Shown: positions 41,985 through 59,323, numbered from the stretch's first letter. The stretch: DNA of 64,000 nt from a virus (IMGVR_UViG_3300005836_000012); one strand, 5' to 3'. Made by a program: numbers and translations. Notes: generated from the sequence alone by a model not told the origin.

Positions 41985-42014
41985 CGACTTCTCCTGTTGG
42001 TTTTCCATGTGCGT

Positions 42015-42043
42015 ATTGTGTGCCCGCACAGATTAATTGTCAA
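42015..42043 (-). promoter_or_regulatory. Leftward promoter (TTGACA-N17-CACAAT) for the AAA+ gene
   Basis: Minus strand: TTGACA (42043-42038), 17 nt, CACAAT (42020-42015), then 6 nt before ATG 42008. Confidence 0.5.
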
Positions 42044-42979: not shown

Positions 42980-42983
42980 AACC

Positions 42984-43301: not shown

Positions 43302-43302
43302 C

Positions 43303-44509: not shown

Positions 44510-44592
44510 AGCTGCGACACCGGCTGTGGATCATCCTGGCTTTGGTTGAGGGCGCCGCTGGCGTATTCTTCTTTCTGCGCGTGTTCCTGTGA
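44506..44592 (+). CDS. 28-aa single-helix peptide
   Basis: MKLRHRLWIILALVEGAAGVFFFLRVFL. ATGA and GTGA overlaps at both ends. Confidence 0.35.
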   Translation: MKLRHRLWIILALVEGAAGVFFFLRVFL

Positions 44593-45191
44593 GAGTCACG
44601 CTGCTGGGCGCCGGCGCACTCGGGCGCGAGTTCTACGAGTGGATTCGCTGCAATCCGGTGGTCGAGGTGCGGTTCGCCGATGACGTGCTGAAGGGCAGTC
44701 GCATCATCACGAGCGACGGTCCGACGACGGTGCTCGACCCTGCCGAGATTCCAGCGACCGAGCTGATGCTGGTCACGATCGCCGACCCGGTGAAGCGGGC
44801 GGCTGCGGTTGCTGCGCGTCCGACGCAGTCCTGGGCCACCTCGACCACATCCCCGAGCGTTCACGCATTTGACAGCCGCTGGGACGACGGCACGATGCAG
44901 GCCCCCTTCACTCTCGTGAGCGTCAACGCGAAGATCGGGAAGCACTGCATCATCGGCGCGTACAGCAGCGTCGGGCACGATGTCGTCATCGGCGACTTCT
45001 GCACGCTGTCCAGCCATGTCGATCTGTGCGGCCGCGTGAAGCTCGGCCAGCGCGTGTTCCTCGGGAGCGGCGCGCGCGTGCTGCCTGGGGTGGCGGTCGC
45101 TGATGACTGCTACATCGGCGCCGGCAGCGTGGTGGTGGTCGATGCCATGGTGCGCGGCACCTACTTCGGCGTGCCAGCGAGGCGCATGTGA
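44589..45191 (+). CDS. NeuD/PglD-family sugar N-acyltransferase (left-handed beta-helix)
   Basis: N-terminal Rossmann-like VTLLGAGALGRE. C-terminal hexapeptide repeats IGKHCIIGAYSSVGHDVVIGDFCTLSSHVDLCGRVKLGQRVFLGSGARVLPGVAV. Confidence 0.7.
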   Translation: MRVTLLGAGALGREFYEWIRCNPVVEVRFADDVLKGSRIITSDGPTTVLDPAEIPATELMLVTIADPVKRAAAVAARPTQSWATSTTSPSVHAFDSRWDDGTMQAPFTLVSVNAKIGKHCIIGAYSSVGHDVVIGDFCTLSSHVDLCGRVKLGQRVFLGSGARVLPGVAVADDCYIGAGSVVVVDAMVRGTYFGVPARRM

Positions 45192-45346: not shown

Positions 45347-46242
45347 TCCACCAAGGTCGACCTGCCATGATCCACCTGATCGGCAACGCCAGCGAGCTGG
45401 CCAACGAGGGCGACTACATCCGCCTGCCCATCGGAATCGATGACGTGGTGGTGATGCGCGAGGCCGGCGAACTGGTCGCCTTCGACAACGTTTGCACGCA
45501 CCGCGGCGCCCGCATCCATGAAGGGCTTGTCGGCAACCGCGAGCCGGTGTGCCGATACCACGGGCGCCGCGCGCGCGCCGACTGCGTGAACCGATACCAG
45601 ATCATCGTGGCCGGCTACTGGCTGTTCGTGAAGGTCGGCGGCGAGCCGGACGACGACACCGAGTTCATCGGCGACCCGACGCGAGCGATAGACGCGCTGC
45701 TGAACATCGGCCCGCTGGAGCGCGTGGCGATGCACACCCAGTTCTACGGCTCGCCGTGGACGATCGCTGTCGAGAACGCGCTCGACTGGACCCACGTCAG
45801 CACCGTTCACCCCGGAAGCCTCGGGCGCATGGGCATCAAGCCAATCGGGGGATGCCCAGGGCCGTCCGGCAGCAGCGTCGAGTTGTTCCGCGCCGATAAT
45901 CGCGCGCTGGCCAGACTGGCGCCAGACAACCCGCTGCCCTGTGACTACGTGCACCTCTACCTTGCCCCATACGCCTGCGTCAGCAGCACCCGAGGGCTCA
46001 CGGTGAGCGTGCAGCACTACCTACCAGCCGGCCCGCACCTGACGCGCTTCGTGACCCGCCTGTATGCCAAGCCGGGCACTCCGCGTGGCCTGGCAACCCA
46101 GGTGCACAAGCTGAACACCCAGGTATTCGACGAAGACGCGGCCGTGTGCGCGAGCGTGCACCCCGAGTTCATCGGCAAAGGCCCGCTGTCGGCTCAGGAG
46201 TGGCGCATCCAGGCGTTCCGCAACGTGTGGACGCCCCGGTGA
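45343..46242 (+). CDS. Rieske [2Fe-2S] non-haem-iron oxygenase (alpha-subunit-like)
   Basis: CTHRGARI...CRYHG Rieske ligands. ENALDWTHVSTVH gives the D-x2-H-x4-H mononuclear iron site. GGGAGA upstream of ATG 45343. Confidence 0.75.
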   Translation: MIHQGRPAMIHLIGNASELANEGDYIRLPIGIDDVVVMREAGELVAFDNVCTHRGARIHEGLVGNREPVCRYHGRRARADCVNRYQIIVAGYWLFVKVGGEPDDDTEFIGDPTRAIDALLNIGPLERVAMHTQFYGSPWTIAVENALDWTHVSTVHPGSLGRMGIKPIGGCPGPSGSSVELFRADNRALARLAPDNPLPCDYVHLYLAPYACVSSTRGLTVSVQHYLPAGPHLTRFVTRLYAKPGTPRGLATQVHKLNTQVFDEDAAVCASVHPEFIGKGPLSAQEWRIQAFRNVWTPR

Positions 46243-46571
46243 GGCTGATCGCCCCGCTCCACGACCTGGTGGTGACGGCCCCGCGCCGCGCCGACAAGCC
46301 GAACAGCCCGCACCGCGCCAGCACCGTGATGTCCGGCAGCGCCTGGGTGTGGCTGGAGGATCAAACGGTGGACGACCTGATCCGTGTGCACGGCCGAAAG
46401 TCGCTGTGCGACGTGACGCCAAACTACGTGTCGATGGTCTGGGGCAGCCCGCCGCCGCAGCGAATCTCCACGCTTCGGATCATCGACTGCCCGACCTGCC
46501 AAGCGGGCCAGGCCAAACGGATGACAACCTGCCCCATGTGCGGGGGCGCGACCAGGGTGCTGAACATATGA
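46239..46571 (+). CDS. Hypothetical protein with C-terminal CxxC-x12-CxxCGG zinc ribbon
   Basis: 110 aa, GTGA overlap. IIDCPTCQAGQAKRMTTCPMCGGATRV. Confidence 0.45.
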   Translation: MRLIAPLHDLVVTAPRRADKPNSPHRASTVMSGSAWVWLEDQTVDDLIRVHGRKSLCDVTPNYVSMVWGSPPPQRISTLRIIDCPTCQAGQAKRMTTCPMCGGATRVLNI

Positions 46572-47647
46572 CGATCCGCGTGCTGATCCCGAAGATGCCC
46601 AGCCCGGACGAGCTGCACCACTACTTATCGCGCATGCACGCCCGCCGCGTCTACGTGAACGGCGGGCCGCTCGTCAGCGAGTTGGAGGAGCGCATCCGAT
46701 CGATCATCGGCGTCGAGTGCCGCATGGTGTCAACCGGCACCTCGGCGATTCAGCTGGCGCTCCAGGCGCTGCACCTGCCGCCGAACAGCCGCGTCGCCGT
46801 CCCCGCGGCCACCTTCTCAGGCACCGGGCTGGCGATCAGGGCCGCAGGCCACCTTCCGGTGCTGTGCGACGTTGATGCCCAGAGCTGGCACCTGCAGCCC
46901 AGCGACGTACCTGCCGCCTGCGCGGCCGCGGTTCCTGTCGCGGCATTCGGCATGCCGGTGAACATCGGGCCGTGGGTGGCCTGGGCTGATGCGATGAACA
47001 AGCCGGTCGTGGTTGATGCCGCTGGAGCGCTCCTGGATCAACCTACCTGCGACAGCCCGCTGGTGCTGTTCGCCTTCAGCCTGCATGCCACCAAGTTCAT
47101 CGGAGCCGGCGAGGGGGGATGCGTCGCGGGGGCCTCGCGCTGGCTGCTGGATCGAGTCGCGGACCTGTCGCGCTTCGGCATGGTCGGCGGGACGAATGCC
47201 AAGATGTCGGAGTACCACGCGGCCGTAGCCCACGCCAGCCTGGACAGCGCCGACACGCGCTGCGAGCACATGCGGATGACGCGGCATCGGTATCACAGCC
47301 GGCTGCTCAAGCGGATTCCAGGCATCCAGTTCCAGCGCCCACCGATCGAACTGCTGTGGCGAGGGGCGGCGTCCCTGATGCCGATCCTGCTGCCAGAGGA
47401 CCGCCCGGCCATGCCCACGATGCACGCGCTGGAGCGCGTCGGGGTCGAGACGCGGCAGTGGTACAGGCCGTTCCTGAATGAGCGGCCAGACATGCCAGTG
47501 AGCCCGAGCGCGCGCCGTTTCGGCGACGACATGCCGGTCACCATGACGCTGATCGAGCGCCTGATCGGCCTGCCGTTCCACTACTTCCTGACGCTCGACG
47601 ACATCGACGCCGTCTGTCATCACCTGGAAACGATATGCGCATCCTGA
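46568..47647 (+). CDS. DegT/DnrJ/EryC1/StrS-family PLP sugar aminotransferase
   Basis: 359 aa from ATG 46568 (ATGA overlap). FAFSLHATKFIGAGEGG carries the PLP-lysine context. Fold-type I layout. Confidence 0.75.
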   Translation: MTIRVLIPKMPSPDELHHYLSRMHARRVYVNGGPLVSELEERIRSIIGVECRMVSTGTSAIQLALQALHLPPNSRVAVPAATFSGTGLAIRAAGHLPVLCDVDAQSWHLQPSDVPAACAAAVPVAAFGMPVNIGPWVAWADAMNKPVVVDAAGALLDQPTCDSPLVLFAFSLHATKFIGAGEGGCVAGASRWLLDRVADLSRFGMVGGTNAKMSEYHAAVAHASLDSADTRCEHMRMTRHRYHSRLLKRIPGIQFQRPPIELLWRGAASLMPILLPEDRPAMPTMHALERVGVETRQWYRPFLNERPDMPVSPSARRFGDDMPVTMTLIERLIGLPFHYFLTLDDIDAVCHHLETICAS

Positions 47648-48624
47648 TCACGGGTGGCTGTGGCTTCCTAGGGGGCCATCTGATCGAGGCCGCGATCGCC
47701 GCGGGGCACTACGTCGAGACGATCGACAGCATCACCTACGCCGGCAACATGCAGAACCTGCCATGGAGGTTTCAGGGCTACCGCAACGCCGACGTGTGCG
47801 ATCGCACGCTGATCGATGCCACGCTCCAGCGGGTTCGGCCGGACTGGGTGATCCACGCCGCGGCGGAGACGCACGTCGGGAGAGCGGTCAATGATGCGGA
47901 GGTCTTCCTGCAGACCAACGTCATCGGCACGCACGTGATGCTGGAGGCCTCGCTGTCGTACTGGCGGGAGATTGAGCACAGCCCCACGTTCCGCTTCCTG
48001 TACGTCAGCACGGACGAGGTGCACGGGAGCCTGGGGTTCAACGACCCGCGCTGGACCGAGGATAGTCCGATCGCCCCGAACAACCAGTACAGCGCGAGCA
48101 AGGCGGCCGGGGATCATCTGTGCCGCGCCTACTGGGTGACGCAGCGGCTTCCAGTGATCGTGACGCACTGCGGCAACAACTACGGCACCCGCCAGCACCC
48201 GGAGAAGCTGATCCCGACGCTGATCGGTCAGTGCCTCGCAGGTCGGCCGATGACGCTGCACGGGGATGGACAGCACGTCCGAGACTGGATCGCCGTCGAG
48301 GACCACTGCTCTGGCCTGCTGGCCGCCTGCGAGCGCGGGAATCCTGGCGAAACCTACGCGTTCAGCGCCGGCCAGGAACTGCGCAACGTGGAGGTGGCGA
48401 AGACCATCGGCGGCGTGTTCGGGGCGGCGACGATCGAGCTGATCGCGGAGCGCGCGGGGAACGATCGCCGCTACGCACTGGACTGCAGCGCGACGCGGGC
48501 AGCGCTCGGCTGGCATCCCCGGCGCAACCTGCTGCTGGAAGTCAATCGGCTGGTGCAATGGCACAGGGCGGTGGGCGAGAAGTTCGCCGCCGACTACGGG
48601 GTAGGTGCGCGGAGGTTTGGATGA
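47635..48624 (+). CDS. rfbB: dTDP-glucose 4,6-dehydratase-like NDP-sugar dehydratase
   Basis: ILITGGCGFLGGH, YVSTDEVHGS, YSASKAAGDHL (YxxxK), NNYGTRQHPEKLIP, GDGQHVRDWIAVEDHC. Confidence 0.8.
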   Translation: MRILITGGCGFLGGHLIEAAIAAGHYVETIDSITYAGNMQNLPWRFQGYRNADVCDRTLIDATLQRVRPDWVIHAAAETHVGRAVNDAEVFLQTNVIGTHVMLEASLSYWREIEHSPTFRFLYVSTDEVHGSLGFNDPRWTEDSPIAPNNQYSASKAAGDHLCRAYWVTQRLPVIVTHCGNNYGTRQHPEKLIPTLIGQCLAGRPMTLHGDGQHVRDWIAVEDHCSGLLAACERGNPGETYAFSAGQELRNVEVAKTIGGVFGAATIELIAERAGNDRRYALDCSATRAALGWHPRRNLLLEVNRLVQWHRAVGEKFAADYGVGARRFG

Positions 48625-50576
48625 CCGAGACGGTGGTGCCAGCGAAGGAGGCCGCGAACCGGCCGACCTTGCCGCAGATTCAAATCCAGAACATCGACCT
48701 GCCGGAAATCGAGCGAGCCGTCTACGGAAGACAGCACGAGGAGGCCTGCAAGCTGTTCGTCGCGGCGCTGCAGCGGCTGAAGATGGGGGCCGGCTTCACC
48801 ACGCTGCCGATGACAGTCGAGGCGCTGAAGATAGGCTACACCCGCATGGCGTCGGCCATGGTTGCCATGCTGGCGGACCCGAACATGGGCTTGGGCTCTG
48901 AGGGCTTCGACATCTTCGGAGCCGAGCACGCGATCACGGACACCATGTTCCGGGCCAGCGCCTACGGCACCAGCGACTTCCTGCTCGCGATCCTTGGGAA
49001 CCGGCTCGACGCGCAGCAGAGCGGCAACAACCAGCCGGGATTCAGGGCCGCAGCTCAACAGGCGGTGAAGTTCATGGTCACGCACAGCCTGGCCAGTGCG
49101 CTGGACCTGGATCACGAACAGATTTTCAAGCAAGACCCCAAGTCGTTCTTCGGCCTGTGGTGCGGCATGCTCGCCCCGCTGCTGGTGCTGACCGAGGCAG
49201 CGACGGCGCGGCGCGAAAAGTTGCTCGGGCTGGGCTACGTCTTCGAAGGCGTCGCCGTCCGCCAGCTGATGCTGCCCAGCGTCAGCGACGCGTTCATGTA
49301 CGCCAGCTACGCCACCAGACCCGACAAGCACAAGGCGAAGGCCGCGATCATCGCGGCGATGCGCCGCGGGATGCTTGGCGCCGGCGTCGAGGAACCGAAG
49401 CCGGAAGTCATCGCCGCGCGCCGCCTGGTGCGCCACCACCGTCCGACGATCCTGGTGTGCGTCGAGTGGTTCGGCGGGCAGCATGCCATGTATCGCTGCT
49501 ACTGCCTGATCATCCGCCAACTCCGCAAGCGCTACCGCCTCGTGGCGATGTCCAGGGCGATCGACATCGACGAAATCGGCAAGGCGGAGTTCGACGAGTG
49601 GCACGAGGTGCCGGCGGAAAACCTGGCCCTCGGCGACCTGGTCAAGCGCGTGGCCGACATCGCCCCGGACATGATCTATCACCCGTCGCTGGGGATGGCG
49701 ATGTGGTGGGTGGCGCTTTCCTCGCTTCGGCTGGCCCCGATCCAGTTCGCCACGCTCGGGCACCCGGCCTCGTCGATGTCTCCGACCATGGACTACATCC
49801 TGTGCGACGAGGGAGCGTTCGGCGATCCAACCCTCGCGGTCGAGCGGATCGTCACCTATCCGAACGGCAGCGCCCGCTACGTCCTGCGGACTGACGAGGA
49901 CGTGCCGCCGCCTTTGCCAGTCAGCGAGGTGTCAGCCGACCCGATCAACATCGCGATCCCGGCCATGATGTGCAAGGTCACCGTTCCATTCCTCAAGGCT
50001 TGCAAGCTGGTCAGCGAGCAGGCTGGGCGCTCCGTGCGTTGGCACTTCTTCATCAACATGCTCGGCCTGAACCTGATCGCTGCCGCGGCGGAATTGAGGG
50101 CGTGGCTGCCGGACTGCCTCACCTACGAGCGGAACACGTACAAAGGCTACATGGACGCCCTGCGGCATTGCCACATCGTCGCGAGCACGTTTCCATTCGG
50201 GGGGACCAACTCCATCATCGACAGCATGATGGTCGGCGTCCCGCCGGTGTGCATCGAGGGCCAGGAACCGCACGAGCGCTTCGACGCAGCCATCATCCGC
50301 AGGGCGCAGCTTCCTGACTGGCTGATCGCCAACGATGTCGAGGGCTGGATCGCGGCCATGGTCCGGCTGATCAAGGAGGACGGCACGCGCAACGCGATCC
50401 GCGATCACCTCCTGACCTTCGACCTGAAGGGCGAGTTCTATGGTCCATCCGAGCACGGCGACGCCTTCGCGCGCGCGGTGGACCTGATCTTCGACAACCA
50501 CGAGGCGATCCAGGCGTTGCCGGATCGCGCGCCGATCGATAGCACCATGTGGAGCGCGCCATGTTCGTCAAGCTGA
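48621..50576 (+). CDS. GT41-family (OGT / HMW1C-like) glycosyltransferase
   Basis: 651 aa, GGAGG RBS. Helical N-domain. APDMIYHPSLGM..LRLAPIQFATLGHPASSMSPTMDYILCDE and CHIVASTFPFGGTNSIIDSMMVGVPPVCIEG match GT41 catalytic blocks. Confidence 0.65.
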   Translation: MTETVVPAKEAANRPTLPQIQIQNIDLPEIERAVYGRQHEEACKLFVAALQRLKMGAGFTTLPMTVEALKIGYTRMASAMVAMLADPNMGLGSEGFDIFGAEHAITDTMFRASAYGTSDFLLAILGNRLDAQQSGNNQPGFRAAAQQAVKFMVTHSLASALDLDHEQIFKQDPKSFFGLWCGMLAPLLVLTEAATARREKLLGLGYVFEGVAVRQLMLPSVSDAFMYASYATRPDKHKAKAAIIAAMRRGMLGAGVEEPKPEVIAARRLVRHHRPTILVCVEWFGGQHAMYRCYCLIIRQLRKRYRLVAMSRAIDIDEIGKAEFDEWHEVPAENLALGDLVKRVADIAPDMIYHPSLGMAMWWVALSSLRLAPIQFATLGHPASSMSPTMDYILCDEGAFGDPTLAVERIVTYPNGSARYVLRTDEDVPPPLPVSEVSADPINIAIPAMMCKVTVPFLKACKLVSEQAGRSVRWHFFINMLGLNLIAAAAELRAWLPDCLTYERNTYKGYMDALRHCHIVASTFPFGGTNSIIDSMMVGVPPVCIEGQEPHERFDAAIIRRAQLPDWLIANDVEGWIAAMVRLIKEDGTRNAIRDHLLTFDLKGEFYGPSEHGDAFARAVDLIFDNHEAIQALPDRAPIDSTMWSAPCSSS

Positions 50577-50815
50577 CTTCTGTGCCAGTCAAGAACCTTG
50601 ACGATGGCGCCTTGCATGCGATGTACGTCGAGGCTGCCGATGTGGCGGCGATCAGTCGCGGCATCCTAAACACTGTCCCGGCAGAGGGTTGCACGATGGT
50701 GCTGATCATGCGGGACGGCGGCGTGGCAACGCTTGCCGTCAGCGAATCGCCAGGCGTTGTGGCCAAGATGGTGGAGGACGCGCTGGCGCGCGCCGTCCAG
50801 ATGCCGCGGCCATGA
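50561..50815 (+). CDS. Hypothetical small protein
   Basis: 84 aa (ATG 50561, alternative GTG 50549). Confidence 0.45.
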   Translation: MFVKLTSVPVKNLDDGALHAMYVEAADVAAISRGILNTVPAEGCTMVLIMRDGGVATLAVSESPGVVAKMVEDALARAVQMPRP

Positions 50816-51303
50816 TCTACGAACTGGAGCTATACCGCCGGACGCGCACCGCCGCGCCCGACCTGCCGACCGACATCCCGGCATCGACGCTGCTGCGCAA
50901 GGAAATGCGCGAGGCCAGCGATGGGCTGATGTTCTTCGCCCTGCACCGCCAGTCGGTTGTCGCCGTTGCAACGCACGCTGCGAACGTCATCCTGCAGATG
51001 GCCCGCACGCTTGACGCCACGGGAGAAACACCAGGGGTTCCTGATCTGGTCAACGGAGCCTGCACGCTGATCCAGGAGGTGCGCGACCGCATGGACCGCG
51101 CCCTGCTGCTGAACGACGGCGAGCAGCTGCGCTGGTCGACCTGCATGCTGGAAATCCAGGTGCGCGGCATCCTGGCCATCCTGGTCGGCACCGTGCCCTA
51201 CACCACCCTGATGGAGACGATCGCCGAGCGCGGCGACCTTCACGCCATCCTGACCGCCTGCGGCGCGCTGCCGCCAACCCAAACCACCGAGACACCCCAA
51301 TGA
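50812..51303 (+). CDS. Hypothetical helical protein
   Basis: 163 aa, ATGA overlap. Confidence 0.5.
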   Translation: MIYELELYRRTRTAAPDLPTDIPASTLLRKEMREASDGLMFFALHRQSVVAVATHAANVILQMARTLDATGETPGVPDLVNGACTLIQEVRDRMDRALLLNDGEQLRWSTCMLEIQVRGILAILVGTVPYTTLMETIAERGDLHAILTACGALPPTQTTETPQ

Positions 51304-51518
51304 TGGACCGCGAGAAGTTCCTGCACACCCTGTCGGCGATCGTGGAGCACGCGCCGCTGACAGCCGAAACCCAACTGGCATCCACCGGCCTATGGGATTC
51401 CATGGCCTGGGTGCAGGTGATCGGAATGCTCGATGACTGCGGCATCGAGGCGAACGGCGAGCAGGTCAGCAAATGCGAGACGGCCGCCGACGTGCTGAAG
51501 CTGGCGAGGCTGGGATGA
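51300..51518 (+). CDS. Acyl/peptidyl carrier protein (phosphopantetheine-binding)
   Basis: 72 aa. LASTGLWDSMAWVQVIGMLDD has the carrier-protein DS(L/M) Ser context in helix II. Confidence 0.6.
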   Translation: MMDREKFLHTLSAIVEHAPLTAETQLASTGLWDSMAWVQVIGMLDDCGIEANGEQVSKCETAADVLKLARLG

Positions 51519-51856
51519 AGCGCCTGCGAGCCGTCGCGCTGTGGCTGTTCTGGCGCTTCGGGTTTGGCCTGCTGCTCTACATGGCCTTGGCTCACGGTAG
51601 CGATGGCGCGGCGAACTTCGCCAAGTTCTACGTCTGGATGGTCGCCGTCCTTCTGTTGCTGGTCGCCATCGGCATGCTTGCTGACATCGATTTGTCGAAC
51701 AAGCCGTCCGTCATACCGCTGTGGCTGAATGTCGCAGTCGACACGGTTGCCTTCTGCGTCATGCTGTGGTTCGGCTGGATCGCCACGGCTGCGGCGTACC
51801 TGTTTTCAATAGTGATCGCTGCGGCCGCGCAGCGCCGCATGGGAGCGAAAGAATGA
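51515..51856 (+). CDS. Integral membrane protein (about 4 TM)
   Basis: 113 aa from ATG 51515 (ATGA overlap). Long hydrophobic segments. Confidence 0.55.
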   Translation: MKRLRAVALWLFWRFGFGLLLYMALAHGSDGAANFAKFYVWMVAVLLLLVAIGMLADIDLSNKPSVIPLWLNVAVDTVAFCVMLWFGWIATAAAYLFSIVIAAAAQRRMGAKE

Positions 51857-52824
51857 ACCGCCGCGAACGTCTGAACGCCACCATCCGCGGCGTGGTCGCG
51901 GTGATCCCTCCGAACGGCGTGAACAACGAGGAACTGGACGCGCTGCACGGCAACGACTTCGCCACGAAGTCAGCCGGGATCACCGGCGTGCTGCGGCGCC
52001 ACAGAACCGCTCCCGAGGCCTCGATGCCGACCGAGTTCGCCTGCGCGGCCGCGGCGCGCCGGCTGATGGTGAACCTCGGATGGGACGCGAGCAGCATCAA
52101 CGCGCTGGTGTTCGTCACGCAGACCCCGGGGGTGGAAATGCCCAGCGGCGCACACGCGATCCACGAGGCGCTCGGGCTTCCCGCCAACTGCGTCCCGGTG
52201 CAGGTGAACTGGGCCTGCGCAGGTTTCGTCTATGGCCTGTGGCTCGGCGCCCTGCTGGGCGGCGGGGACCGCACGCAGCGCATCCTGGTGCTGGCCGGCG
52301 ACACGATCACGCGGCGCTGCGACCCGAACGACAGGGCTACCTCGGCTGTCTTCGGGGACGCCGCGAGCGCCACGGCGATCGAGGTCGGATCGAATCAGGG
52401 CGCCATGCGCTTCGTCCTGGGCACCGACCCGGAGGGATGGCACAAGCTGTCCATGGCTGACGGCAAGCCGATGACGATGGACGGGACGGCCGTCTTCAAC
52501 TTCACGCTGCGCCGCGTTCCTGCCCTGCTCTCGGACGTGCGCGAGGCCGGCGTGCCGGACCTGTGGCTGTTCCACCAGGCCAACGCCTTCATGCTCGACC
52601 ACATCGTGCGCAAGGCCGGGATTCACCCCTCCGTGGCCCCCACGAACCTACAGGTGCGCGGCAACACCAGCAGCGCATCCATCCCCCTCCTGATGTGCGA
52701 CATGGGCCGTCAGGCGCTGCGCGGCAAGCGCGTGGCCATGGTCGGCTTCGGCGCCGGCTGGACCTGGGGGGCTGTCAACGTCGAATTGCACGGCCTGGAC
52801 TGTGCGGAGGTGATCGAGCTATGA
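51853..52824 (+). CDS. KAS III (FabH)-family 3-oxoacyl-ACP synthase / acyltransferase
   Basis: Cys-His-Asn triad contexts NWACAGFVYG, LFHQANAFM, RGNTSSASIP. 323 aa, ATGA overlap. Confidence 0.75.
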   Translation: MNRRERLNATIRGVVAVIPPNGVNNEELDALHGNDFATKSAGITGVLRRHRTAPEASMPTEFACAAAARRLMVNLGWDASSINALVFVTQTPGVEMPSGAHAIHEALGLPANCVPVQVNWACAGFVYGLWLGALLGGGDRTQRILVLAGDTITRRCDPNDRATSAVFGDAASATAIEVGSNQGAMRFVLGTDPEGWHKLSMADGKPMTMDGTAVFNFTLRRVPALLSDVREAGVPDLWLFHQANAFMLDHIVRKAGIHPSVAPTNLQVRGNTSSASIPLLMCDMGRQALRGKRVAMVGFGAGWTWGAVNVELHGLDCAEVIEL

Positions 52825-53525
52825 CGGCCAGGTATCTGGTGACCGGCGCCTACGGTGGGCTGGGCGCGGAGGTCTGCAAGCGGCTGCGCGCGCAGGGCGC
52901 GGAGGTTCACGGCATGGTGCGCGCTGTCGGCGGGCCTGATGTCGATCTGTACGGCTACCACCAGATGGACTTCAGCCACGCCACGCCATCCCAAGTGGCG
53001 ACCGCCGTTCTGAAGATCGCATCCGCCTTCGACGGTGTGGTTCACACTGCTGGCTCCGAGGTGGTGCACCCGCTGGTCGGGCATCAAGACGCCCAATACA
53101 ACCGCGCCATGGCCGCAGCGCACAGCGCCTTCGGCATCCTCATGGCTGCAGCTGAAGGCGCCGTGATGAAGGGCGGCAGCATCGTCATGATGTCCAGCGT
53201 GGCCGCGCATCGCGGGGTGGCCGGCATGGTGGCCTACAGCGCCGGCAAGGCGGCGATCGAGGCCATGGTGCGGAGCGGCGCGCTGGAGCTGAAGCGCCGC
53301 AGCATCCGGGTCAACTGCGTGGCCGCTGGCGCCTTCCGCAGTCCGATGCACGACCGCATCACCCGCGGCATGAACGAGGCCAGCCAGGACGCCTACGCCC
53401 AGAAGCACCCGATGGGCATCGGCGCCCTGTCGCACGTGGCCGACGCCGTGATGAACCTGCTTCAAGGCGCGAGCTGGCAGACCGGCAGCACGGTGGTGGT
53501 CGATGGCGGATTCTTGGCGGGATGA
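52821..53525 (+). CDS. Short-chain dehydrogenase/reductase (FabG-like)
   Basis: VTGAYGGLGAEV (TGxxxGxG), SSVAA...YSAGKAA (S...YxxxK). 234 aa. Confidence 0.75.
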   Translation: MTARYLVTGAYGGLGAEVCKRLRAQGAEVHGMVRAVGGPDVDLYGYHQMDFSHATPSQVATAVLKIASAFDGVVHTAGSEVVHPLVGHQDAQYNRAMAAAHSAFGILMAAAEGAVMKGGSIVMMSSVAAHRGVAGMVAYSAGKAAIEAMVRSGALELKRRSIRVNCVAAGAFRSPMHDRITRGMNEASQDAYAQKHPMGIGALSHVADAVMNLLQGASWQTGSTVVVDGGFLAG

Positions 53526-53880
53526 GGCATGATCCTGAACGCTTGCGGAAATGATGTGACTGTTCCCGTGGTCATCTGCGCCACATTGGCAGTCGCTGCG
53601 GTTGCGGTCTGGTGCCGGCTATTTTGGATGATGCACTGCGACGTTCGAGCGTACGAGTCTAGAATGCGCTCGACGCCAACCTCGCAGTTGCCACGTCCCC
53701 GAAAACCCCCCGCAGGTCGGATGGTCCTGCCTCCGGTGTCGCCTGCGGGGTGTCTAGGGTCCAGTTACATCGAGAGGGGCCAACCCCGACACGTTTTGAA
53801 TGCAGAGCCGGTTACTCCGGTCGACGCAACGGACCGTGGGGCGGCCCCATACGCGCAGCCCGCAAGGGCAACAGTGAGCC

Positions 53881-53909
53881 GCCCCCAGGCAGAGCAAGGG
53901 CCTGGGGGC
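53881..53909 (+). terminator. 10-bp GC stem-loop (GCCCCCAGGC/GCCTGGGGGC), terminator or RBS-occluding hairpin
   Basis: Loop AGAGCAAGG. Ends 5 nt before ATG 53915. Arm sequence resembles the 10224 hairpin. Confidence 0.4.
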
Positions 53910-53914
53910 TGACC

Positions 53915-54121
53915 ATGACGCTGGACGAAGCGCTGCGCCGCCCAGGCTTCTGGGTCGCTTGGACCGGAGTCTGGGGCTGCCCGTTTGAAGTGGCAGCCGA
54001 CCTGACCGTCTACCAGCTGAACCAGAGGAACGTGCGCGATGGCGTGCTGCGCCGCGACCGCTGGAACGAATCCGCCATCACCTTGGTCGAGCCGCTGAAC
54101 ATGGGGCCGCCCGGCGGCTGA
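53915..54121 (+). CDS. Hypothetical small protein
   Basis: 68 aa from internal ATG 53915. MTLDEALRRPGFWVAWTGVWGCPFE.... Confidence 0.45.
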   Translation: MTLDEALRRPGFWVAWTGVWGCPFEVAADLTVYQLNQRNVRDGVLRRDRWNESAITLVEPLNMGPPGG

Positions 54122-54229
54122 TCGTTCAAAAACGGAACACCTGAGCCCCAACGGCTCCCCTGTGCAGCGCGGAACAATTGCGCCAGAATTGCACACCTGT
54201 TCCGAACCCCCCAAGACACGGGGTAAACC

Positions 54230-54778
54230 ATGGCACACCACAACTGGCATGACGCCAAGCGCACCTACGTCGAAGGCACCGAGCAACCGGACGGCACCCG
54301 GGTGTGGCAGAGCCTGGAGCAGGTCGGCCTGCTCTACGCCATCAGCGACTCCAGCATCCGCAAGCGGGCAGCCAGGTCAGCCGAGGACTGGGGCACCCAG
54401 CGGGACATCTATCGCACCAAGATTGCACAGGCCAAGCAAGCCAAGCGAATCGACGTTCTAGCAGCGCGCGGCGCGGAGTTCGACGGCAAGGCTTTGCGGG
54501 CTGCCGAGCAGGTGCTGGATCAGGTGCTGCTGCGCATGCTCCAGGCCGGGCAGGGCAACAAGCTGGTCGCGGCTGCCGAACTCCAGCGCTTGGCGGCCTG
54601 CATCCGCACCGCTCACGTGGCCGGGCGCCTGGCCATGGGCGACACCACCGAAATCGTCAAGCAGGTCGACACCCTCACCCGGGAATTCGACCTGTCCACG
54701 CTGACCGACGAGGAATTGGCCAAGCTGGACGAACTGCGGGCAAAAATGCACGGCACGGCACCGGATGTTCGTCACTGA
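54230..54778 (+). CDS. terS: Terminase small subunit
   Basis: 182 aa immediately upstream of TerL. N-terminal HTH-like LEQVGLLYAISDSSIRKRAARSAEDW and coiled-coil C-terminus. Confidence 0.6.
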   Translation: MAHHNWHDAKRTYVEGTEQPDGTRVWQSLEQVGLLYAISDSSIRKRAARSAEDWGTQRDIYRTKIAQAKQAKRIDVLAARGAEFDGKALRAAEQVLDQVLLRMLQAGQGNKLVAAAELQRLAACIRTAHVAGRLAMGDTTEIVKQVDTLTREFDLSTLTDEELAKLDELRAKMHGTAPDVRH

Positions 54779-54780
54779 TC

Positions 54781-55029
54781 ATGCGTATTTACCCGATGGA
54801 CGATTGCCACGACTGGGATGTCTGGCACTGCCGCCGATGCGTCGAGCCGCGCGACATCCTGTGGATTGACAGCGAGTCGTGCCGCTGGGCGCAGTTCCAA
54901 CACGCCGAGTACGACGGGGTCGAGCTGGTGGTGCACCAGGCGGACCGCATCCACATCTTCGACCAGCGTCGGCTGGTGCTGATCGACCCGGTGGCCACAG
55001 CCGAACCATCCCGTGTCAGTCGTCGCTGA
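54781..55029 (+). CDS. Hypothetical small protein between TerS and TerL
   Basis: 82 aa from ATG 54781. Cys/His/Trp-rich N-terminus. Confidence 0.45.
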   Translation: MRIYPMDDCHDWDVWHCRRCVEPRDILWIDSESCRWAQFQHAEYDGVELVVHQADRIHIFDQRRLVLIDPVATAEPSRVSRR

Positions 55030-56518
55030 CCAGCGCGTCCCGTCCGAGCTGGCAAGCCGGGGGGAGTGGGGGCGCCGGTCGTTCCGCTACTTCTTCCGCC
55101 ACTTCGCGTGGCCCGTGCTGTACCCAGGGGTGGAGTTCGTCGACGGCTGGCACATCGACGCGGTGTGCGAGCACCTGGAGGCACTGAAGCGGGGGCAGAT
55201 AAGGCGGCTGGCCATCAACATGCCGGGCCGGCACCTCAAGTCATCCCTTGTCAGCCAGGCCTTCAACGCCTGGGACTGGATCGCCGACCCGCAGCTGACG
55301 CACCTGACGGCCAGCTACGTCACGGCGCTGGCGGTGCGCGACGCGGTGGGAACGCGGCGCATCATCCAGTCGAAGCTGTACCAGGACTGCTACGGCGGCC
55401 GATTCGCGCTCCAGCCCGACCAGAACGAGAAGACGATGTACGCCAACACCCGCGGCGGCTACCGGCGCCCGGTCGGGGTCGACGCCGGCATCATGGGCTA
55501 CGGGGGCAACCGGCGGACGGTCGACGACCCGGTGGACCCAGCTGCTGTATCCAACGCCGGCGCGATCGAGCGCGGTGTGGAGTGGTGGAAGGGCACGTTC
55601 AGCACGCGGGGGAACGATCCGCTGAACGACACGATCATCCTGGCCCAGCAGCGCCTGAGCGACGGCGACACCACCGGCTACGTGATGAAGAACGAGCGCG
55701 GCTGGGAGTACCTGGTGATCCCGGCGCGCTACGAGCACGAGCACCGCCGCCCGCCGACCATCATCGGATGGGTGGACCCGCGCAAGAAGGAACGCGAGGT
55801 GATACAGCCATCCCGGCTGCCCGACAGCGCGGTCGCGGAACTGGAAGCCAACCTTGGCGAGTACCACCGGCTCGCCCAGCTCCAGCAGCGCCCGACGAAC
55901 CGCGGCGGGATCATCTTCCCGCGCAGCCACTACCGCTTCTGGACGAAGGCGACGCTGCCCAAGATCGACTACGTGGCGCTGTCGGTCGACTGCACCTTCA
56001 AGGACGGCCCCACCAACGACCATGTGGCGATCCAGGCGTGGGGCTTCGCGCTCTCGCACAGCCAGAACATCCTGCTGCACCGCGTCAAGGAGCGCATGTC
56101 CTTCGCGGCGACCTGCGATTCCGTCAAGTCGGTCTATGCACTGTTCGAGCAGCTGTGCATAGCGGTGCTGATCGAGGACAAGGCCAACGGCAGCGCGGTG
56201 GTCGAAACCCTCGCGGGGACGGTTCCTGGTGTGGTTGCGGTCAACCCGGAGGGCGGCAAGGCGGCCCGGGCCTTCGCCATGCAGGCCGACCACGAGGCGC
56301 ACTGCATCGTCCTCCCGGCCCCGGAGGAAGACCCGAAGATCGAGGTCTTCCTGGTCGCCAGTTCGGCGTTCACCGGCCTGGAAGGCGGCGACGATGACGA
56401 GGTGGACGCCATGACGCAGTTCGTGAACTGGAAGCGCGTGCGGTTCAAGACCACCGGCCTGCAGCAGCTGATGAAGGCGCAGTACGAGGCGGCGCAGGCA
56501 GCGAAGGCGGCCGCCTGA
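55013..56518 (+). CDS. terL: Terminase large subunit
   Basis: RRLAINMPGRHLKSSL (PxRxGKS-type Walker A variant). C-terminal nuclease block ALSVDCTFKDGPTNDHVAIQAWGF. 501 aa. Confidence 0.8.
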   Translation: MSVVADQRVPSELASRGEWGRRSFRYFFRHFAWPVLYPGVEFVDGWHIDAVCEHLEALKRGQIRRLAINMPGRHLKSSLVSQAFNAWDWIADPQLTHLTASYVTALAVRDAVGTRRIIQSKLYQDCYGGRFALQPDQNEKTMYANTRGGYRRPVGVDAGIMGYGGNRRTVDDPVDPAAVSNAGAIERGVEWWKGTFSTRGNDPLNDTIILAQQRLSDGDTTGYVMKNERGWEYLVIPARYEHEHRRPPTIIGWVDPRKKEREVIQPSRLPDSAVAELEANLGEYHRLAQLQQRPTNRGGIIFPRSHYRFWTKATLPKIDYVALSVDCTFKDGPTNDHVAIQAWGFALSHSQNILLHRVKERMSFAATCDSVKSVYALFEQLCIAVLIEDKANGSAVVETLAGTVPGVVAVNPEGGKAARAFAMQADHEAHCIVLPAPEEDPKIEVFLVASSAFTGLEGGDDDEVDAMTQFVNWKRVRFKTTGLQQLMKAQYEAAQAAKAAA

Positions 56519-58849: not shown

Positions 58850-59323
58850 ATGGCACGAGGCGACATTCACTGGTTCAATTCGGCTGGCCTTCAGGGCTTC
58901 AAGAAGTTCTACGACCTGTCGAGCGAGACGCTGAAGCTGGGCATCGTCAACGGGGCGAACGTCCCAACGGTCAACACGCCGAATCCGGCCTGGGGCGCGA
59001 ACGGCACGATCAACTTCAGCGCCGACCAGGTCACGACGAACGCCGGCGGCTACAGCGGGCCGATCACGCTGGCATCGGTCACATTCACCCAAGTGGCCAA
59101 CCTCGCCACTCTCGCGGCGAACAGCGTGGTGATCGCGCAGGACAGCGGCAACGGCTTCTCCAACGCCAACTTCGGGATCATGTACGACGACACGCACGCG
59201 AACAAACCCGCCTTCGCGTTCGTCGACCTAGGCGGCCCGATCGGCAACGCGAACGGGCCGGTGAACATCAACTTCAACAGCAGCGCTGTCAGCGGCCCGA
59301 TCCTCACGACGACCGCCCCCTGA
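58850..59323 (+). CDS. Hypothetical Asn/Gly/Thr-rich (structural-looking) protein
   Basis: 157 aa, GGAG upstream. Confidence 0.5.
   Translation: MARGDIHWFNSAGLQGFKKFYDLSSETLKLGIVNGANVPTVNTPNPAWGANGTINFSADQVTTNAGGYSGPITLASVTFTQVANLATLAANSVVIAQDSGNGFSNANFGIMYDDTHANKPAFAFVDLGGPIGNANGPVNINFNSSAVSGPILTTTAP

What the first reader, a model, noticed from the sequence alone, without database searches (positions are those of the whole stretch)
51300..53525. Carrier protein + KAS III + ketoreductase trio, with a membrane protein, in a phage genome
The block comprises a 72-aa carrier protein with the DS(M) phosphopantetheine context, a FabH-family enzyme with the full Cys-His-Asn triad, and a FabG-like SDR. 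They are chained by ATGA overlaps around a 4-TM protein. Established: this trio suffices to make a 3-hydroxyacyl-carrier thioester. KAS III homologues also act as carrier-dependent acyltransferases onto sugars or aglycones in natural-product pathways. Fatty-acid or polyketide-type carrier chemistry is very unusual for a phage of this size. It points to an acyl decoration of the amino sugar, or to a lipid-linked product.
Basis: partly seen in the sequence, partly recalled or inferred. Interest (0 to 1): 0.7.

Follow-up and report, generated by a model that had tools for sequence, protein, structure and literature searches.

The report
Phage acyl-amino-sugar protein glycosylation operon
A bacteriophage carries its own small carrier-protein/condensing-enzyme/reductase set which, by its neighbours and relatives, most likely makes a 3-hydroxybutyryl-type side chain for an unusual amino sugar that a phage glycosyltransferase then attaches to a protein, an operon shared by many uncultured phages.

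Summary
Window 51300-53525 encodes a 72-aa acyl carrier protein (invariant W32-D33-S34), a non-conserved 113-aa membrane ORF, a KAS III with the Cys122-His241-Asn271 triad, and an SDR ketoreductase, joined by ATGA overlaps.

The trio is the distal part of a ~9-kb translationally coupled operon (44589-53525). Upstream lie a VioB-like N-acyltransferase, a Rieske oxygenase, a C4 sugar aminotransferase, a dTDP-glucose 4,6-dehydratase, an HMW1C-like protein N-glycosyltransferase and a conserved 163-aa helical protein.

The same operon occurs in at least 13 phage contig lineages (KAS III 37-72% identical). One relative has the sugar/transferase core without the trio, so the trio is a plug-in module.

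Bacteria (Undibacterium, Caulobacteraceae) carry the same enzyme set. The closest described system is the Pseudomonas syringae "viosamine island", which makes dTDP-4-(3-hydroxybutanoylamino)-4,6-dideoxyglucose for flagellin glycans.

Best reading: the trio makes 3-hydroxybutanoyl-ACP as N-acyl donor for a viosamine-type sugar. The acyl-decoration reading is supported by context; the lipid-linked/membrane-protein reading is not.

The acceptor is unknown. A virion protein is favoured, and a DNA target is weakly hinted by one relative. I call it a new variant of a known kind; neither the KAS III nor the transferase has a relative in this context among 50,697 deposited phage records.

The parts
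44589..45191 (+). Left-handed beta-helix (hexapeptide) N-acyltransferase, VioB/PglD-like; proposed to put the acyl group on the 4-amino sugar
   Evidence: Pfam Hexapep 3.5e-17. The best solved relative is VioB, 7TXP, E 3.4e-17 over the full length, followed by PglD and perosamine N-acetyltransferase. Present in all cassette versions except truncated loci.
45367..46242 (+). Rieske non-haem iron oxygenase (start uncertain, 45343 or 45367); optional tailoring enzyme, substrate unknown
   Evidence: Pfam Rieske 8.3e-12 plus VanA_C/Ring_hydroxyl_A. CxH...CxxH at residue 43 and ExxxDxxHxxxxH at residue 136. Co-occurs with KAS3-SDR-LbH in bacteria L007/L008. Absent in L101 and L103.
46568..47647 (+). 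PLP-dependent sugar aminotransferase (DegT/DnrJ/EryC1), C4-type (VioA/DesI-like)
   Evidence: Pfam 2e-41. Top NCBIfam match is DesI, dTDP-4-dehydro-6-deoxyglucose aminotransferase, 6.8e-32, below its cut-off. Best PDB match is 2PO3.
47635..48624 (+). dTDP-glucose 4,6-dehydratase (RmlB-like); optional in relatives
   Evidence: TIGR01181 7.1e-94, 314 bits against a cut-off of 365. Pfam GDP_Man_Dehyd 4.6e-56. Present in window, L002, L090, L098, L101 and L103 only.
48621..50576 (+). HMW1C-like GT41-related glycosyltransferase (cytoplasmic protein N-glycosyltransferase family)
   Evidence: Full-length matches to solved NGTs 8P0O (1.8e-62), ApNGT 3Q3E (4.9e-56) and 8J30. NCBIfam NGTferase 3.3e-74 but far below its cut-off. 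Pfam HMW1C_N 28.9 bits against 27. About 65 clusters found, almost all without a name and from metagenome or read assemblies; none seen on a contig longer than 68.4 kb.
50561..50815 (+). Small ORF (about 84 aa) of unknown function; start set by the L002 homologue
   Evidence: ORF, ATG at 50561. A similar 91-aa ORF sits at the same place in L002. No family hit.
50812..51303 (+). p163: conserved all-alpha protein that always follows the glycosyltransferase; function unknown
   Evidence: About 50 representatives at E<=1e-3. AF2 pLDDT 94.6, helical bundle. No significant fold match. Present directly after the GT in all cassette versions, including L103 which lacks the trio.
51300..51518 (+). Dedicated acyl carrier protein; predicted phosphopantetheine site Ser34 (codon 51399-51401)
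   Evidence: invariant WDS, profile matches almost exclusively to ACPs, predicted ACP fold.
51515..51856 (+). 113-aa hydrophobic ORF (3-4 TM segments); lineage-specific insert, probably not part of the chemistry
   Evidence: Hydropathy. No homologue in any related phage or cellular locus. No family above threshold.
51853..52824 (+). KAS III (FabH-family) condensing enzyme, Cys122-His241-Asn271
   Evidence: Pfam ACP_syn_III and ACP_syn_III_C above cut-off. Best PDB match is 4EFI, 1.1e-59. Triad invariant. In the NJ tree 12 of 13 phage sequences cluster together.
52821..53525 (+). Classical SDR, 3-oxoacyl-ACP reductase-like
   Evidence: Pfam adh_short_C2 3.6e-30 and KR 1.5e-11. Among the top NCBIfam matches is 3-oxoacyl-ACP reductase, below its cut-off. 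Best PDB match is MupS. Motifs.

Best explanation
The ACP, KAS III and SDR form a self-contained short-chain 3-hydroxyacyl-ACP generator. It is the acyl-supply module of a phage glycosylation operon (44589-53525).

Proposed steps:
1. A host phosphopantetheinyl transferase converts the phage ACP to its holo form on Ser34, and host FabD loads malonate. This is inferred; I found no phage PPTase or FabD among the roughly 65 ORFs scanned.
2. KAS III (Cys122 acyl-enzyme, with His241 and Asn271 for decarboxylation) condenses acetyl-CoA with malonyl-ACP to give acetoacetyl-ACP.
3. The SDR reduces it to 3-hydroxybutanoyl-ACP. With no dehydratase, enoyl reductase or elongating KAS in the operon, the chain stops there.
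4. In parallel, dTDP-glucose (from host RmlA) is converted by the phage 4,6-dehydratase and the C4 aminotransferase to a dTDP-4-amino-4,6-dideoxyhexose (viosamine type).
5. The VioB-like hexapeptide transferase moves the 3-hydroxyacyl group onto the 4-amino group. The Rieske oxygenase may modify the product further.
6. The HMW1C-like glycosyltransferase, probably working with p163, attaches the finished sugar to an acceptor during lytic growth. The acceptor is most likely a protein, and a virion protein is favoured.

Shown here: gene identities, catalytic motifs, operon structure, conservation and modularity. Inferred: the chemistry, the chain length, the donor for the N-acyltransferase, and the acceptor.
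For: (1) Identities and intact catalytic motifs of all three proteins.

(2) Translational coupling of the whole operon by ATGA overlaps.

(3) The same gene set and order (LbH-Rieske-DegT-[RmlB]-GT-p163-ACP-KAS3-SDR) occurs in L001, L002, L005, L088-L092, L096, L098, L100 and L101, at 37-72% KAS III identity.

(4) Modularity. L103 keeps LbH-DegT-RmlB-GT-p163 but lacks ACP, KAS3, SDR and Rieske together. That is what an optional acyl-supply unit would look like.

(5) Bacterial loci carry KAS3-ACP-KAS3-SDR-LbH-Rieske next to DegT and a TPR-GT41 enzyme (L007 Undibacterium curvum; L008 Caulobacteraceae). KAS3-SDR pairs, often with a second KAS3 and sometimes with LbH, DegT or an ACP, recur across many phyla.

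(6) The described viosamine island of P. syringae pv. tabaci has vioA, vioB, vioS (KAS III), vioR (reductase) and acp. It yields D-Qui4N(3-hydroxy-1-oxobutyl)2Me, and a vioR deletion loses the modified viosamine (PMC3927599).

(7) The best solved relative of the LbH enzyme is VioB. The aminotransferase is closest to C4 enzymes.

(8) Biochemical precedent. A discrete ACP (NzsE), a KAS III (NzsF) and FabG make 3-hydroxybutyryl-ACP from acetyl-CoA and malonyl-ACP (as summarised in PMC11610953).

(9) The KAS III and SDR score far below the NCBIfam cut-offs for housekeeping FabH and FabG (176 against 249 bits; 88 against 298 bits). They are therefore specialised paralogues.
Against: - No biochemistry exists for any of these proteins.
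- VioB/PglD-family enzymes that have been characterised use acyl-CoA rather than acyl-ACP (my own knowledge). The hand-over from ACP to the sugar is therefore the weakest step.
- The authors of the viosamine-island paper drew a different order: N-acetylation first, then elongation on the sugar.
- Chain length and primer are inferred only from the absence of other FAS genes.
- I could not compare directly with the P. syringae proteins, because their sequences were not in the collections I could reach.
- The window ACP alone does not reach the Pfam threshold.
- The acceptor is unknown. N-x-S/T sequons in structural proteins are only weakly enriched, z about 2.
- One relative (L101) places the cassette beside thymidine-hypermodification genes.
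Confidence: 0.6

Rival explanations
1. Elongation on the sugar, the order drawn for the viosamine island. The LbH enzyme first N-acetylates the amino sugar with acetyl-CoA. KAS III with malonyl-ACP then extends the N-acetyl to N-acetoacetyl, and the SDR reduces the sugar-bound ketone.
For: This is the pathway proposed in PMC3927599. The LbH gene is present whether or not the trio is (L103 against the others), which also fits 'acetylate first, elaborate later'. Characterised VioB/PglD-type enzymes use acetyl-CoA (own knowledge).
Against: KAS III chemistry needs a thioester-bound acyl group on the active-site Cys and leaves the product on ACP. An amide-bound acetyl is not a known Claisen substrate (established enzymology of the family). 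The carbazole precedent shows that the same trio yields 3-hydroxybutyryl-ACP as a free donor.
Confidence: 0.1
2. KAS III acts as a non-condensing, carrier-dependent acyltransferase (as some KAS III-like enzymes do in natural-product pathways). It would put an acyl group on a sugar hydroxyl or on the acceptor, and the SDR would act on the sugar, for example as a 4-keto reductase.
For: KAS III-like acyltransferases exist (own knowledge). The SDR also gives a weak Epimerase-family hit.
Against: The full Cys-His-Asn decarboxylative triad is invariant in all phage and cellular members. The SDR groups with 3-oxoacyl-ACP reductases and MupS rather than with sugar 4-ketoreductases. The 4-keto group is already consumed by the aminotransferase. 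The vioR phenotype fits acyl-chain reduction.
Confidence: 0.08
3. The whole cassette, trio included, builds a sugar that decorates phage DNA (for example on 5-hydroxymethyl-pyrimidines) rather than protein.
For: In L101 the cassette lies directly after AAA_33, HMUDK_hel, thymidylate-synthase-like and YfbR-like genes. In L005 it follows DNA polymerase A. Phage glycosyltransferases are known to hypermodify DNA (bioRxiv 10.1101/2023.12.21.572611).
Against: No homologue of the L101 thymidylate-synthase-like or HMUDK genes is found in the 64-kb window or in any other cassette locus (tblastn). No such Pfam family appears among the window ORFs scanned. The transferase aligns over its full length, including the acceptor-binding N-terminal domain, with protein N-glycosyltransferases. 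A 34%-identical homologue sits inside a head-gene module (L102). The DNA-glycan preprint mentions none of these enzyme types.
Confidence: 0.08
4. The trio is an auxiliary metabolic module that boosts or rewires host fatty-acid or lipid synthesis, or makes a lipid-linked or small-molecule product, with the membrane ORF as partner.
Against: - Scores are far below the housekeeping FabH and FabG cut-offs.
- The closest cellular relatives sit in glycan-type clusters rather than fab operons.
- The membrane ORF is not conserved.
- The trio never occurs in these phages without the sugar genes.
- No dehydratase, enoyl reductase or elongating KAS is present.
Confidence: 0.04

Closest known systems
Viosamine island of Pseudomonas syringae pv. 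tabaci 6605 (vioA, vioB, vioS, vioR, acp, vioM, vioT) and the homologous part of the P. aeruginosa PAK flagellin glycosylation island (PMC3927599)
   Same: It has the same enzyme classes: C4 aminotransferase, hexapeptide N-acyltransferase, KAS III, 3-oxoacyl-ACP reductase, small dedicated ACP, and a transferase for the finished sugar. Its product is an N-(3-hydroxybutanoyl)-4-amino-4,6-dideoxyglucose. The reductase is genetically required for that sugar.
   Different: This cassette is phage-borne. It has no methyltransferase. It adds a Rieske oxygenase, a 4,6-dehydratase and p163. The transferase is a 651-aa HMW1C-like enzyme rather than the 1173-aa VioT. The acceptor is unknown, whereas the island's acceptor is rhamnose on flagellin. 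Direct sequence comparison with the Pta 6605 proteins was not possible.
Bacterial KAS3-ACP-KAS3-SDR-LbH-Rieske cassettes next to DegT and TPR-GT41 genes (Undibacterium curvum L007; Caulobacteraceae MAG L008)
   Same: These hold the closest cellular homologues found (KAS III 39-41%, SDR 40-42%, LbH 31-35%, Rieske 28-29%, ACP 29-37%). They include the Rieske enzyme and a GT41-family transferase.
   Different: The cellular versions have two KAS III paralogues flanking the ACP. Phages keep only the one downstream of the ACP, with a deletion of about 17-24 residues. The cellular transferase has TPR repeats and is only 21% identical. There is no p163. These cellular cassettes are uncharacterised as far as I could find.
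NzsE (ACP) / NzsF (KAS III) / FabG in carbazole (neocarazostatin) biosynthesis
   Same: A discrete ACP, a KAS III and a ketoreductase make 3-hydroxybutyryl-ACP from acetyl-CoA and malonyl-ACP as a building block handed to another enzyme (PMC11610953).
   Different: That system is an actinomycete secondary-metabolite pathway. [quoted passage not shown] Homology to the phage proteins was not tested.
HMW1C / ApNGT cytoplasmic protein N-glycosyltransferases
   Same: The phage transferase is homologous over its full length (E 1.8e-62 to 3.2e-55 against solved NGTs). These enzymes glycosylate Asn in N-x-S/T sequons of adhesins in the cytoplasm (PMC3012730 abstract).
   Different: Known NGTs transfer plain hexoses from UDP-sugars. 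Here the enzyme is embedded in a dTDP-amino-sugar pathway and scores far below the NCBIfam equivalog cut-off (250 against 1000 bits). Donor and acceptor are untested.
Virus-encoded glycan pathways: mycobacteriophage virion glycosylation; giant-virus viosamine pathways
   Same: Viruses that carry their own sugar-modifying enzymes and glycosyltransferases to decorate virions (PMC11256854 abstract; PMC9614988 listed; details from my own knowledge).
   Different: None of these is reported to carry an ACP/KAS III/reductase acyl-supply module or an HMW1C-like transferase. No such report turned up in my searches.
Housekeeping type II fatty-acid synthesis (AcpP, FabH, FabG)
   Same: Same protein folds and catalytic residues.
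   Different: Scores are below the equivalog cut-offs. The ACP carries a W-D-S motif rather than the usual D-S-L context. The genomic context is glycan biosynthesis, and no FabD, FabZ, FabI or FabF is present.

Membership tests
Acyl carrier protein (Pfam PF00550 PP-binding) | Significant match to the family model | tested here: inconclusive
   The window protein alone gives E=0.032, 14.9 bits against a cut-off of 20.8. All 6 orthologues match at E<=0.1, best 1.2e-7. A 16-sequence profile hits 29 PDB sequences, all but one named as ACPs, best 2e-8.
Acyl carrier protein (Pfam PF00550 PP-binding) | Conserved Asp-Ser phosphopantetheine site at the N-terminus of helix II in a small helical bundle | tested here: met
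   W32-D33-S34 is invariant in 16 sequences and aligns with the DSL of AcpM. In the AF2 model helix II starts at residue 36. The top 50 structural matches are all ACP/PCP carriers, TM 0.6-0.77.
Acyl carrier protein (Pfam PF00550 PP-binding) | Post-translational 4'-phosphopantetheinylation | not testable with these tools
   Needs mass spectrometry of the expressed protein with AcpS or Sfp.
KAS III / FabH family | ACP_syn_III and ACP_syn_III_C domains above the Pfam gathering score | tested here: met
   57.2 bits against 24, and 70.7 bits against 26.6.
KAS III / FabH family | Cys-His-Asn catalytic triad | tested here: met
   C122, H241 and N271 are invariant. They align with the CAGF, HQAN and GNTS motifs of N. 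meningitidis FabH.
Housekeeping FabH (NCBIfam NF006829 / TIGR00747) | Score above the curated cut-off | tested here: not met
   176.2 bits against 249, and 130.3 against 292.1. It is a specialised paralogue, not the fatty-acid-synthesis initiator.
Classical SDR, 3-oxoacyl-ACP reductase type | TGxxxGxG cofactor motif and Ser-Tyr-Lys catalytic residues; Pfam adh_short above cut-off | tested here: met
   TGAYGGLG at 8, SSV at 125, YSAGK at 139. adh_short_C2 scores 105.7 bits against 27.
FabG equivalog (TIGR01830) | Score above the curated cut-off | tested here: not met
   87.6 bits against 297.75.
Viosamine-island-type N-acyl-viosamine pathway | Co-located C4 aminotransferase, hexapeptide N-acyltransferase, KAS III, reductase and ACP | tested here: met
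   All five lie in one overlapping operon. The composition matches PMC3927599.
Viosamine-island-type N-acyl-viosamine pathway | VioM methyltransferase and VioT-type transferase | tested here: not met
   There is no methyltransferase in 44589-53912. The transferase is HMW1C-like and 651 aa, against 1173 aa for VioT.
Viosamine-island-type N-acyl-viosamine pathway | Orthology to the Pta 6605 proteins; product D-Qui4N(3-hydroxybutanoyl) | not tested
   Sequences AB499894/AB061230 are not in the reachable collections. The product needs chemistry.
HMW1C-like protein N-glycosyltransferase (NGT) | N-terminal all-alpha domain plus GT-B catalytic domain, homologous over the full length to solved NGTs | tested here: met
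   Residues 27-613 align with residues 10-606 of 8P0O at 1.8e-62, and with 3Q3E at 4.9e-56. HMW1C_N scores 28.9 bits against 27.
HMW1C-like protein N-glycosyltransferase (NGT) | NCBIfam NGTferase equivalog cut-off; UDP-hexose donor; Asn-x-Ser/Thr acceptor | tested here: not met
   250.6 bits against 1000. Donor and acceptor cannot be tested here. Sequon enrichment in virion proteins is weak.

The most novel reading that the evidence does not exclude
A lineage of uncultured siphophages with GTA-like tails uses an HMW1C-type cytoplasmic glycosyltransferase to attach an N-(3-hydroxyacyl)-4-amino-4,6-dideoxyhexose to its own virion proteins. The sugar would be built with a phage-encoded ACP/KAS III/reductase module and possibly oxidised further by a Rieske enzyme. 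If so, this would be the first phage-encoded carrier-protein-dependent glycan tailoring. It would also be an NGT-family enzyme using a dTDP-activated acyl-amino sugar, and an acyl-ACP-dependent VioB-type transferase.
Probability: 0.3. Interest if true: 0.8.

Novelty: new variant of a known kind. Interest (0 to 1): 0.6.

Why it matters
Carrier-protein (ACP) chemistry is hardly known in phages, and self-encoded virion glycosylation is documented for only a few phage groups.

Here a complete, translationally coupled pathway for an N-acylated amino sugar plus its transferase is conserved across many uncultured phages with genome-sized contigs of 40-68 kb (about 65 transferase clusters). It has no relative among 50,697 deposited phage records.

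If the product decorates virions, it could affect adsorption, stability or recognition by hosts and predators. If it decorates host proteins or DNA, it would be a new takeover or anti-defence route.

For enzymology it offers compact, separable parts: an NGT homologue that probably uses an unusual dTDP-sugar donor, a VioB-type transferase that may accept acyl-ACP, and a minimal three-protein 3-hydroxyacyl-ACP generator.

It also puts a testable function on widespread but uncharacterised bacterial KAS3-ACP-KAS3-SDR-LbH cassettes.

Tried and rejected
- **Nucleotide search of 44500-54000 against deposited phages:** no match. The KAS III protein search found only 20 records, all below 60% identity and mostly unannotated contigs, which I judge to be cellular-type fabH on those contigs. 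The transferase found none.
- **Word-indexed homologue search with the 72-aa ACP:** one relative only. Orthologues had to be read out of the related loci instead.
- **p163:** the confident model gave no significant fold match. Weak MazG/PRA-PH-like hits and one Pfam PRA-PH member are not enough to name it.
- **DNA-hypermodification reading,** prompted by L101: no thymidylate-synthase-like or HMUDK homologue in the window or the other loci.
- **Lysogenic-conversion reading:** no integrase recognised, no sigma-70-like promoter in 42900-55200, and the cassette sits at the end of the early/nin operon. This evidence is weak and negative only.
- **N-x-S/T sequon enrichment as a pointer to the acceptor:** structural proteins have the highest densities (10, 12 and 9 sites), but only z about 1.3-2 against shuffles. 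Not decisive.
- **Literature searches** for phage ACP/FabH, phage viosamine and phage NGT: nothing relevant.
- **IMG/VR loci L093-L095 and L097:** they carry a KAS III without the transferase. Three of the four have low GC (about 0.38-0.44). I set them aside as unrelated or host-derived.

Full report
**1. What is there**

The window is essentially a whole phage contig. The proteins it encodes are recorded on a 64,114-bp contig. It encodes TerL (55013-56518, at most 38% identical to any deposited phage), a portal, a head-maturation protease, a tape measure and a J-like tail protein. It also has a phiJL001-gp84/BR0599-type baseplate hub (17189-18034), Erf, exonucleases and RusA, and NinB.

On the + strand at the reported coordinates lie four ORFs:
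- a 72-aa ORF (51300-51518);
- a 113-aa hydrophobic ORF (51515-51856);
- a 323-aa KAS III (51853-52824);
- a 234-aa SDR (52821-53525).

I read the sequence, and every junction is an ATGA overlap. Third-position GC of these ORFs is 0.78-0.86 in a 65% GC genome.

**2. Are the three calls right?**

KAS III. Both Pfam KAS III domains score above their cut-offs. The best solved relative is 4EFI (1.1e-59), followed by many FabH structures. Cys122, His241 and Asn271 are invariant in 20 relatives and in 38 phage and cellular sequences. It scores well below the NCBIfam cut-offs for housekeeping FabH.

SDR. Pfam adh_short_C2 scores 3.6e-30 and KR 1.5e-11. The motifs TGAYGGLG, HTAG, SSV and YSAGK are in place. 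The only PDB match at E<=1e-15 is MupS (5.4e-16). It also falls below the FabG equivalog cut-off.

ACP. On its own the sequence is a sub-threshold PP-binding match (E 0.032). I extracted the ORF at the equivalent position from 15 related phage and bacterial loci. The bacterial one in Undibacterium has a recorded Pfam PP-binding hit. All share an invariant W-D-S. A 16-sequence profile retrieves 29 PDB sequences, all but one named as ACPs, with a best E of 2e-8. The AF2 model (pLDDT 85.6) is a small helical bundle whose top 50 structural matches are all ACP/PCP carriers (TM 0.6-0.77, rmsd mostly 2-3.5 Å). Ser34 sits just before helix II.

**3. The membrane ORF is not part of the unit**

It has no homologue in any related locus. 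In L002 an unrelated soluble 66-aa ORF occupies that position. In L005 and L001 the ACP gene abuts KAS III directly. Small variable ORFs are scattered through the cassette in all relatives.

**4. The trio is the tail end of a larger operon**

From 44589 to 53525 the genes are chained, mostly by ATGA overlaps. In order they are:
- a hexapeptide N-acyltransferase whose best solved relative is VioB (7TXP, 3.4e-17, full length; then PglD and perosamine N-acetyltransferase);
- a Rieske oxygenase with intact 2Fe-2S and mononuclear-iron motifs;
- a DegT-family aminotransferase closest to C4 enzymes (DesI, PseC, LegC, WecE);
- a dTDP-glucose 4,6-dehydratase (TIGR01181 7.1e-94);
- a 651-aa HMW1C-like glycosyltransferase aligned end to end with solved protein N-glycosyltransferases (8P0O 1.8e-62, ApNGT 3Q3E 4.9e-56);
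- a small ORF;
- a 163-aa protein (p163);
- then ACP, the membrane ORF, KAS III and SDR.

I found no PPTase, FabD, RmlA, dehydratase (FabZ-type), enoyl reductase or elongating KAS among the roughly 65 ORFs I scanned.

**5. Relatives**

The same cassette, in the same order, occurs in 12 other phage contig lineages besides the window, as fetched loci L001, L002 (with fragments L003 and L004), L005/L006, L088-L092, L096, L098 (with fragment L099), L100 and L101. KAS III identity runs from 37 to 72%. Several of these carry the same GTA-like tail genes as the window.

In a neighbour-joining tree 12 of 13 phage KAS III sequences form one clade. That clade is sister to a proteobacterial group and is marked by a deletion of about 17-24 residues relative to the cellular glycan-cluster enzymes.

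The transferase family comprises about 65 clusters (90% identity). Almost all carry no name and come from metagenome or read assemblies. Many have longest contigs of 40-68 kb, the rest are shorter fragments, and none lies on a contig longer than 68.4 kb. I read this as a phage-specific lineage.

The cassette is modular:
- L103 has LbH, DegT, RmlB, GT and p163 but lacks ACP, KAS III, SDR and Rieske together.
- L101 has the trio but no Rieske enzyme.
- L098 and L096 add a PhyH-type dioxygenase.
- RmlB is present in only some.
- p163 always follows the transferase, with or without the trio, so it belongs with the transferase and not with the ACP.

**6. Cellular counterparts and the closest known system**

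The nearest named cellular KAS III homologues (38-42% identical) are ~350-aa proteins, mostly of Proteobacteria. In Undibacterium curvum the gene lies in the order TPR-GT41, DegT, KAS3, ACP, KAS3, SDR, LbH, Rieske. A Caulobacteraceae MAG has the same core. KAS3-SDR pairs, often with a second KAS3 and sometimes with LbH, DegT or an ACP, recur in many Bacteroidota and other genomes.

The phage transferase and the Undibacterium TPR-GT41 enzyme share a GT41 catalytic domain (21% identity over 291 residues, E 1e-9).

The described system with this composition is the "viosamine island" of Pseudomonas syringae pv. tabaci 6605. It comprises vioA (aminotransferase), vioB (acetyltransferase), vioS (KAS III), vioR (3-oxoacyl-ACP reductase), acp, vioM (methyltransferase) and vioT (transferase). 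It produces D-Qui4N(3-hydroxy-1-oxobutyl)2Me at the tip of the flagellin glycan. A vioR deletion loses the modified viosamine, and the P. aeruginosa PAK glycosylation island has homologues (PMC3927599; PMC4622738).

There is also a biochemical precedent for the trio on its own. A discrete ACP (NzsE), a KAS III (NzsF) and FabG make 3-hydroxybutyryl-ACP from acetyl-CoA and malonyl-ACP (as summarised in PMC11610953).

**7. Mechanism I think most likely (confidence about 0.6 for the role of the trio)**

- Host enzymes make holo-ACP and malonyl-ACP.
- KAS III forms acetoacetyl-ACP.
- The SDR reduces it to 3-hydroxybutanoyl-ACP. The chain stops there because nothing in the operon can dehydrate or elongate it.
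- The dehydratase and aminotransferase make a dTDP-4-amino-4,6-dideoxyhexose.
- The VioB-like enzyme N-acylates it.
- The Rieske enzyme may add an oxygen somewhere.
- The HMW1C-like enzyme transfers the sugar.

The identities, motifs, coupling, conservation and modularity are shown here. The chemistry is inferred from family knowledge, from the Pseudomonas genetics and from the carbazole biochemistry.

The weakest link is the hand-over from ACP to the sugar. Characterised VioB/PglD-type enzymes use acyl-CoA (my own knowledge), and the Pseudomonas authors drew N-acetylation followed by elongation on the sugar. I regard that order as chemically unlikely for a KAS III, but I keep it as a rival.

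**8. The acceptor**

HMW1C-type enzymes glycosylate Asn in adhesins in the cytoplasm (PMC3012730 abstract). A 34%-identical phage homologue sits alone inside a SU10-like head-gene module, between capsid-region genes and the adaptor (L102). Virion glycosylation by phage-encoded transferases is already proposed for mycobacteriophages (PMC11256854 abstract). In the window the cassette lies at the end of the early/nin operon, directly upstream of the packaging genes. No promoter-like site and only weak terminator-like sites are found around it, which fits lytic-cycle expression.

These points favour a virion protein as acceptor, but the evidence is thin. N-x-S/T sequons are densest in structural proteins (8631-10157: 10 sites; 18456-21194: 12; 21726-22565: 9). 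Against shuffled versions of the same proteins this is only z of about 1.3-2.

One relative (L101) has the cassette directly after HMUDK-, thymidylate-synthase- and YfbR-like genes, which raises a DNA target. Those genes have no homologue in the window or in the other loci, so I rate this low for the window. A host protein such as flagellin or an adhesin remains possible.

**9. Novelty and verdict**

The trio is a new variant of a known kind. It is a phage-resident, single-KAS III version of the acyl-supply module of viosamine-type glycan pathways, coupled to an HMW1C-like transferase and a conserved unknown partner. I found no description of it in the searchable literature.

The lipid-linked/membrane-protein alternative is not.

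Interest is 0.6. The chemistry is explainable by precedent. However, phage-encoded carrier-protein chemistry feeding a probable protein glycosylation system, conserved in dozens of uncultured phages, is unexpected and directly testable.

Noticed in passing
window 48621-50576: An HMW1C-like (NGT-family) glycosyltransferase in a phage. The family has about 65 clusters, almost all unnamed and from metagenome or read assemblies, none on a contig longer than 68.4 kb. It has no match in 50,697 deposited phage records.
   Followed up: yes
window 50812-51303: p163 is a conserved all-alpha protein (AF2 pLDDT 94.6) that always lies directly downstream of the transferase, with or without the ACP trio. 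It has no significant fold or family match, only faint MazG/PRA-PH-like hints.
   Followed up: partly
window 45367-46242: A Rieske oxygenase with intact 2Fe-2S and mononuclear-iron motifs travels with KAS3-SDR-LbH in both phages and bacteria. Its substrate is unknown, and no cognate reductase was seen in the window.
   Followed up: partly
window 59348-60784: An apiosidase-like glycoside hydrolase domain plus a collagen-binding-2 domain (Pfam 1.3e-37 and 6.7e-11), encoded just after the portal and small head-region genes. It may be a virion-associated glycan-degrading enzyme.
   Followed up: no
L101 3747-7009: A related phage has AAA_33, HMUDK_hel, thymidylate-synthase-like and YfbR-like genes (a thymidine-hypermodification set) immediately upstream of the same sugar/ACP cassette.
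   Followed up: partly
L102 10001-11773 and 21063 onward: A 34%-identical transferase sits alone inside a SU10-like head module. The same contig encodes a giant (>2900 aa) protein with GGDEF and ART-PolyVal domains.
   Followed up: no
L098 6980-7741; L096 7287-7970: Some cassette versions carry an extra PhyH-type Fe(II)/2-oxoglutarate dioxygenase right after the transferase.
   Followed up: no
L007 8710-11062; L008 8705-11002: Cellular cassettes have two KAS III paralogues flanking the ACP, both with Cys-His-Asn. Phages keep only the downstream one. Two condensing enzymes might mean a longer (C6) hydroxyacyl chain in the bacterial versions; this is speculation.
   Followed up: partly
window 3872-4768 (- strand): A DUF4942 / methyltransferase-like gene (Pfam 5.5e-50) lies on the opposite strand in the middle of the head-gene region.
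   Followed up: no
window 40431-42029 (- strand): A 532-aa AAA+ ATPase (phrog_8638, 546 bits) is encoded antisense to the surrounding + strand early genes.
   Followed up: no
window 26000-28000: A GC dip (0.586 against about 0.65) coincides with the strand switch and an XRE-type HTH regulator (27340-27621, - strand). It looks like an immunity or switch region, but I recognised no integrase. The window has no tRNA genes.
   Followed up: partly
window 8631-10157, 18456-21194, 21726-22565, 58850-59323: Structural proteins are markedly Asn-rich (5.6-12% against about 2% in early proteins) and carry most of the genome's N-x-S/T sequons.
   Followed up: partly
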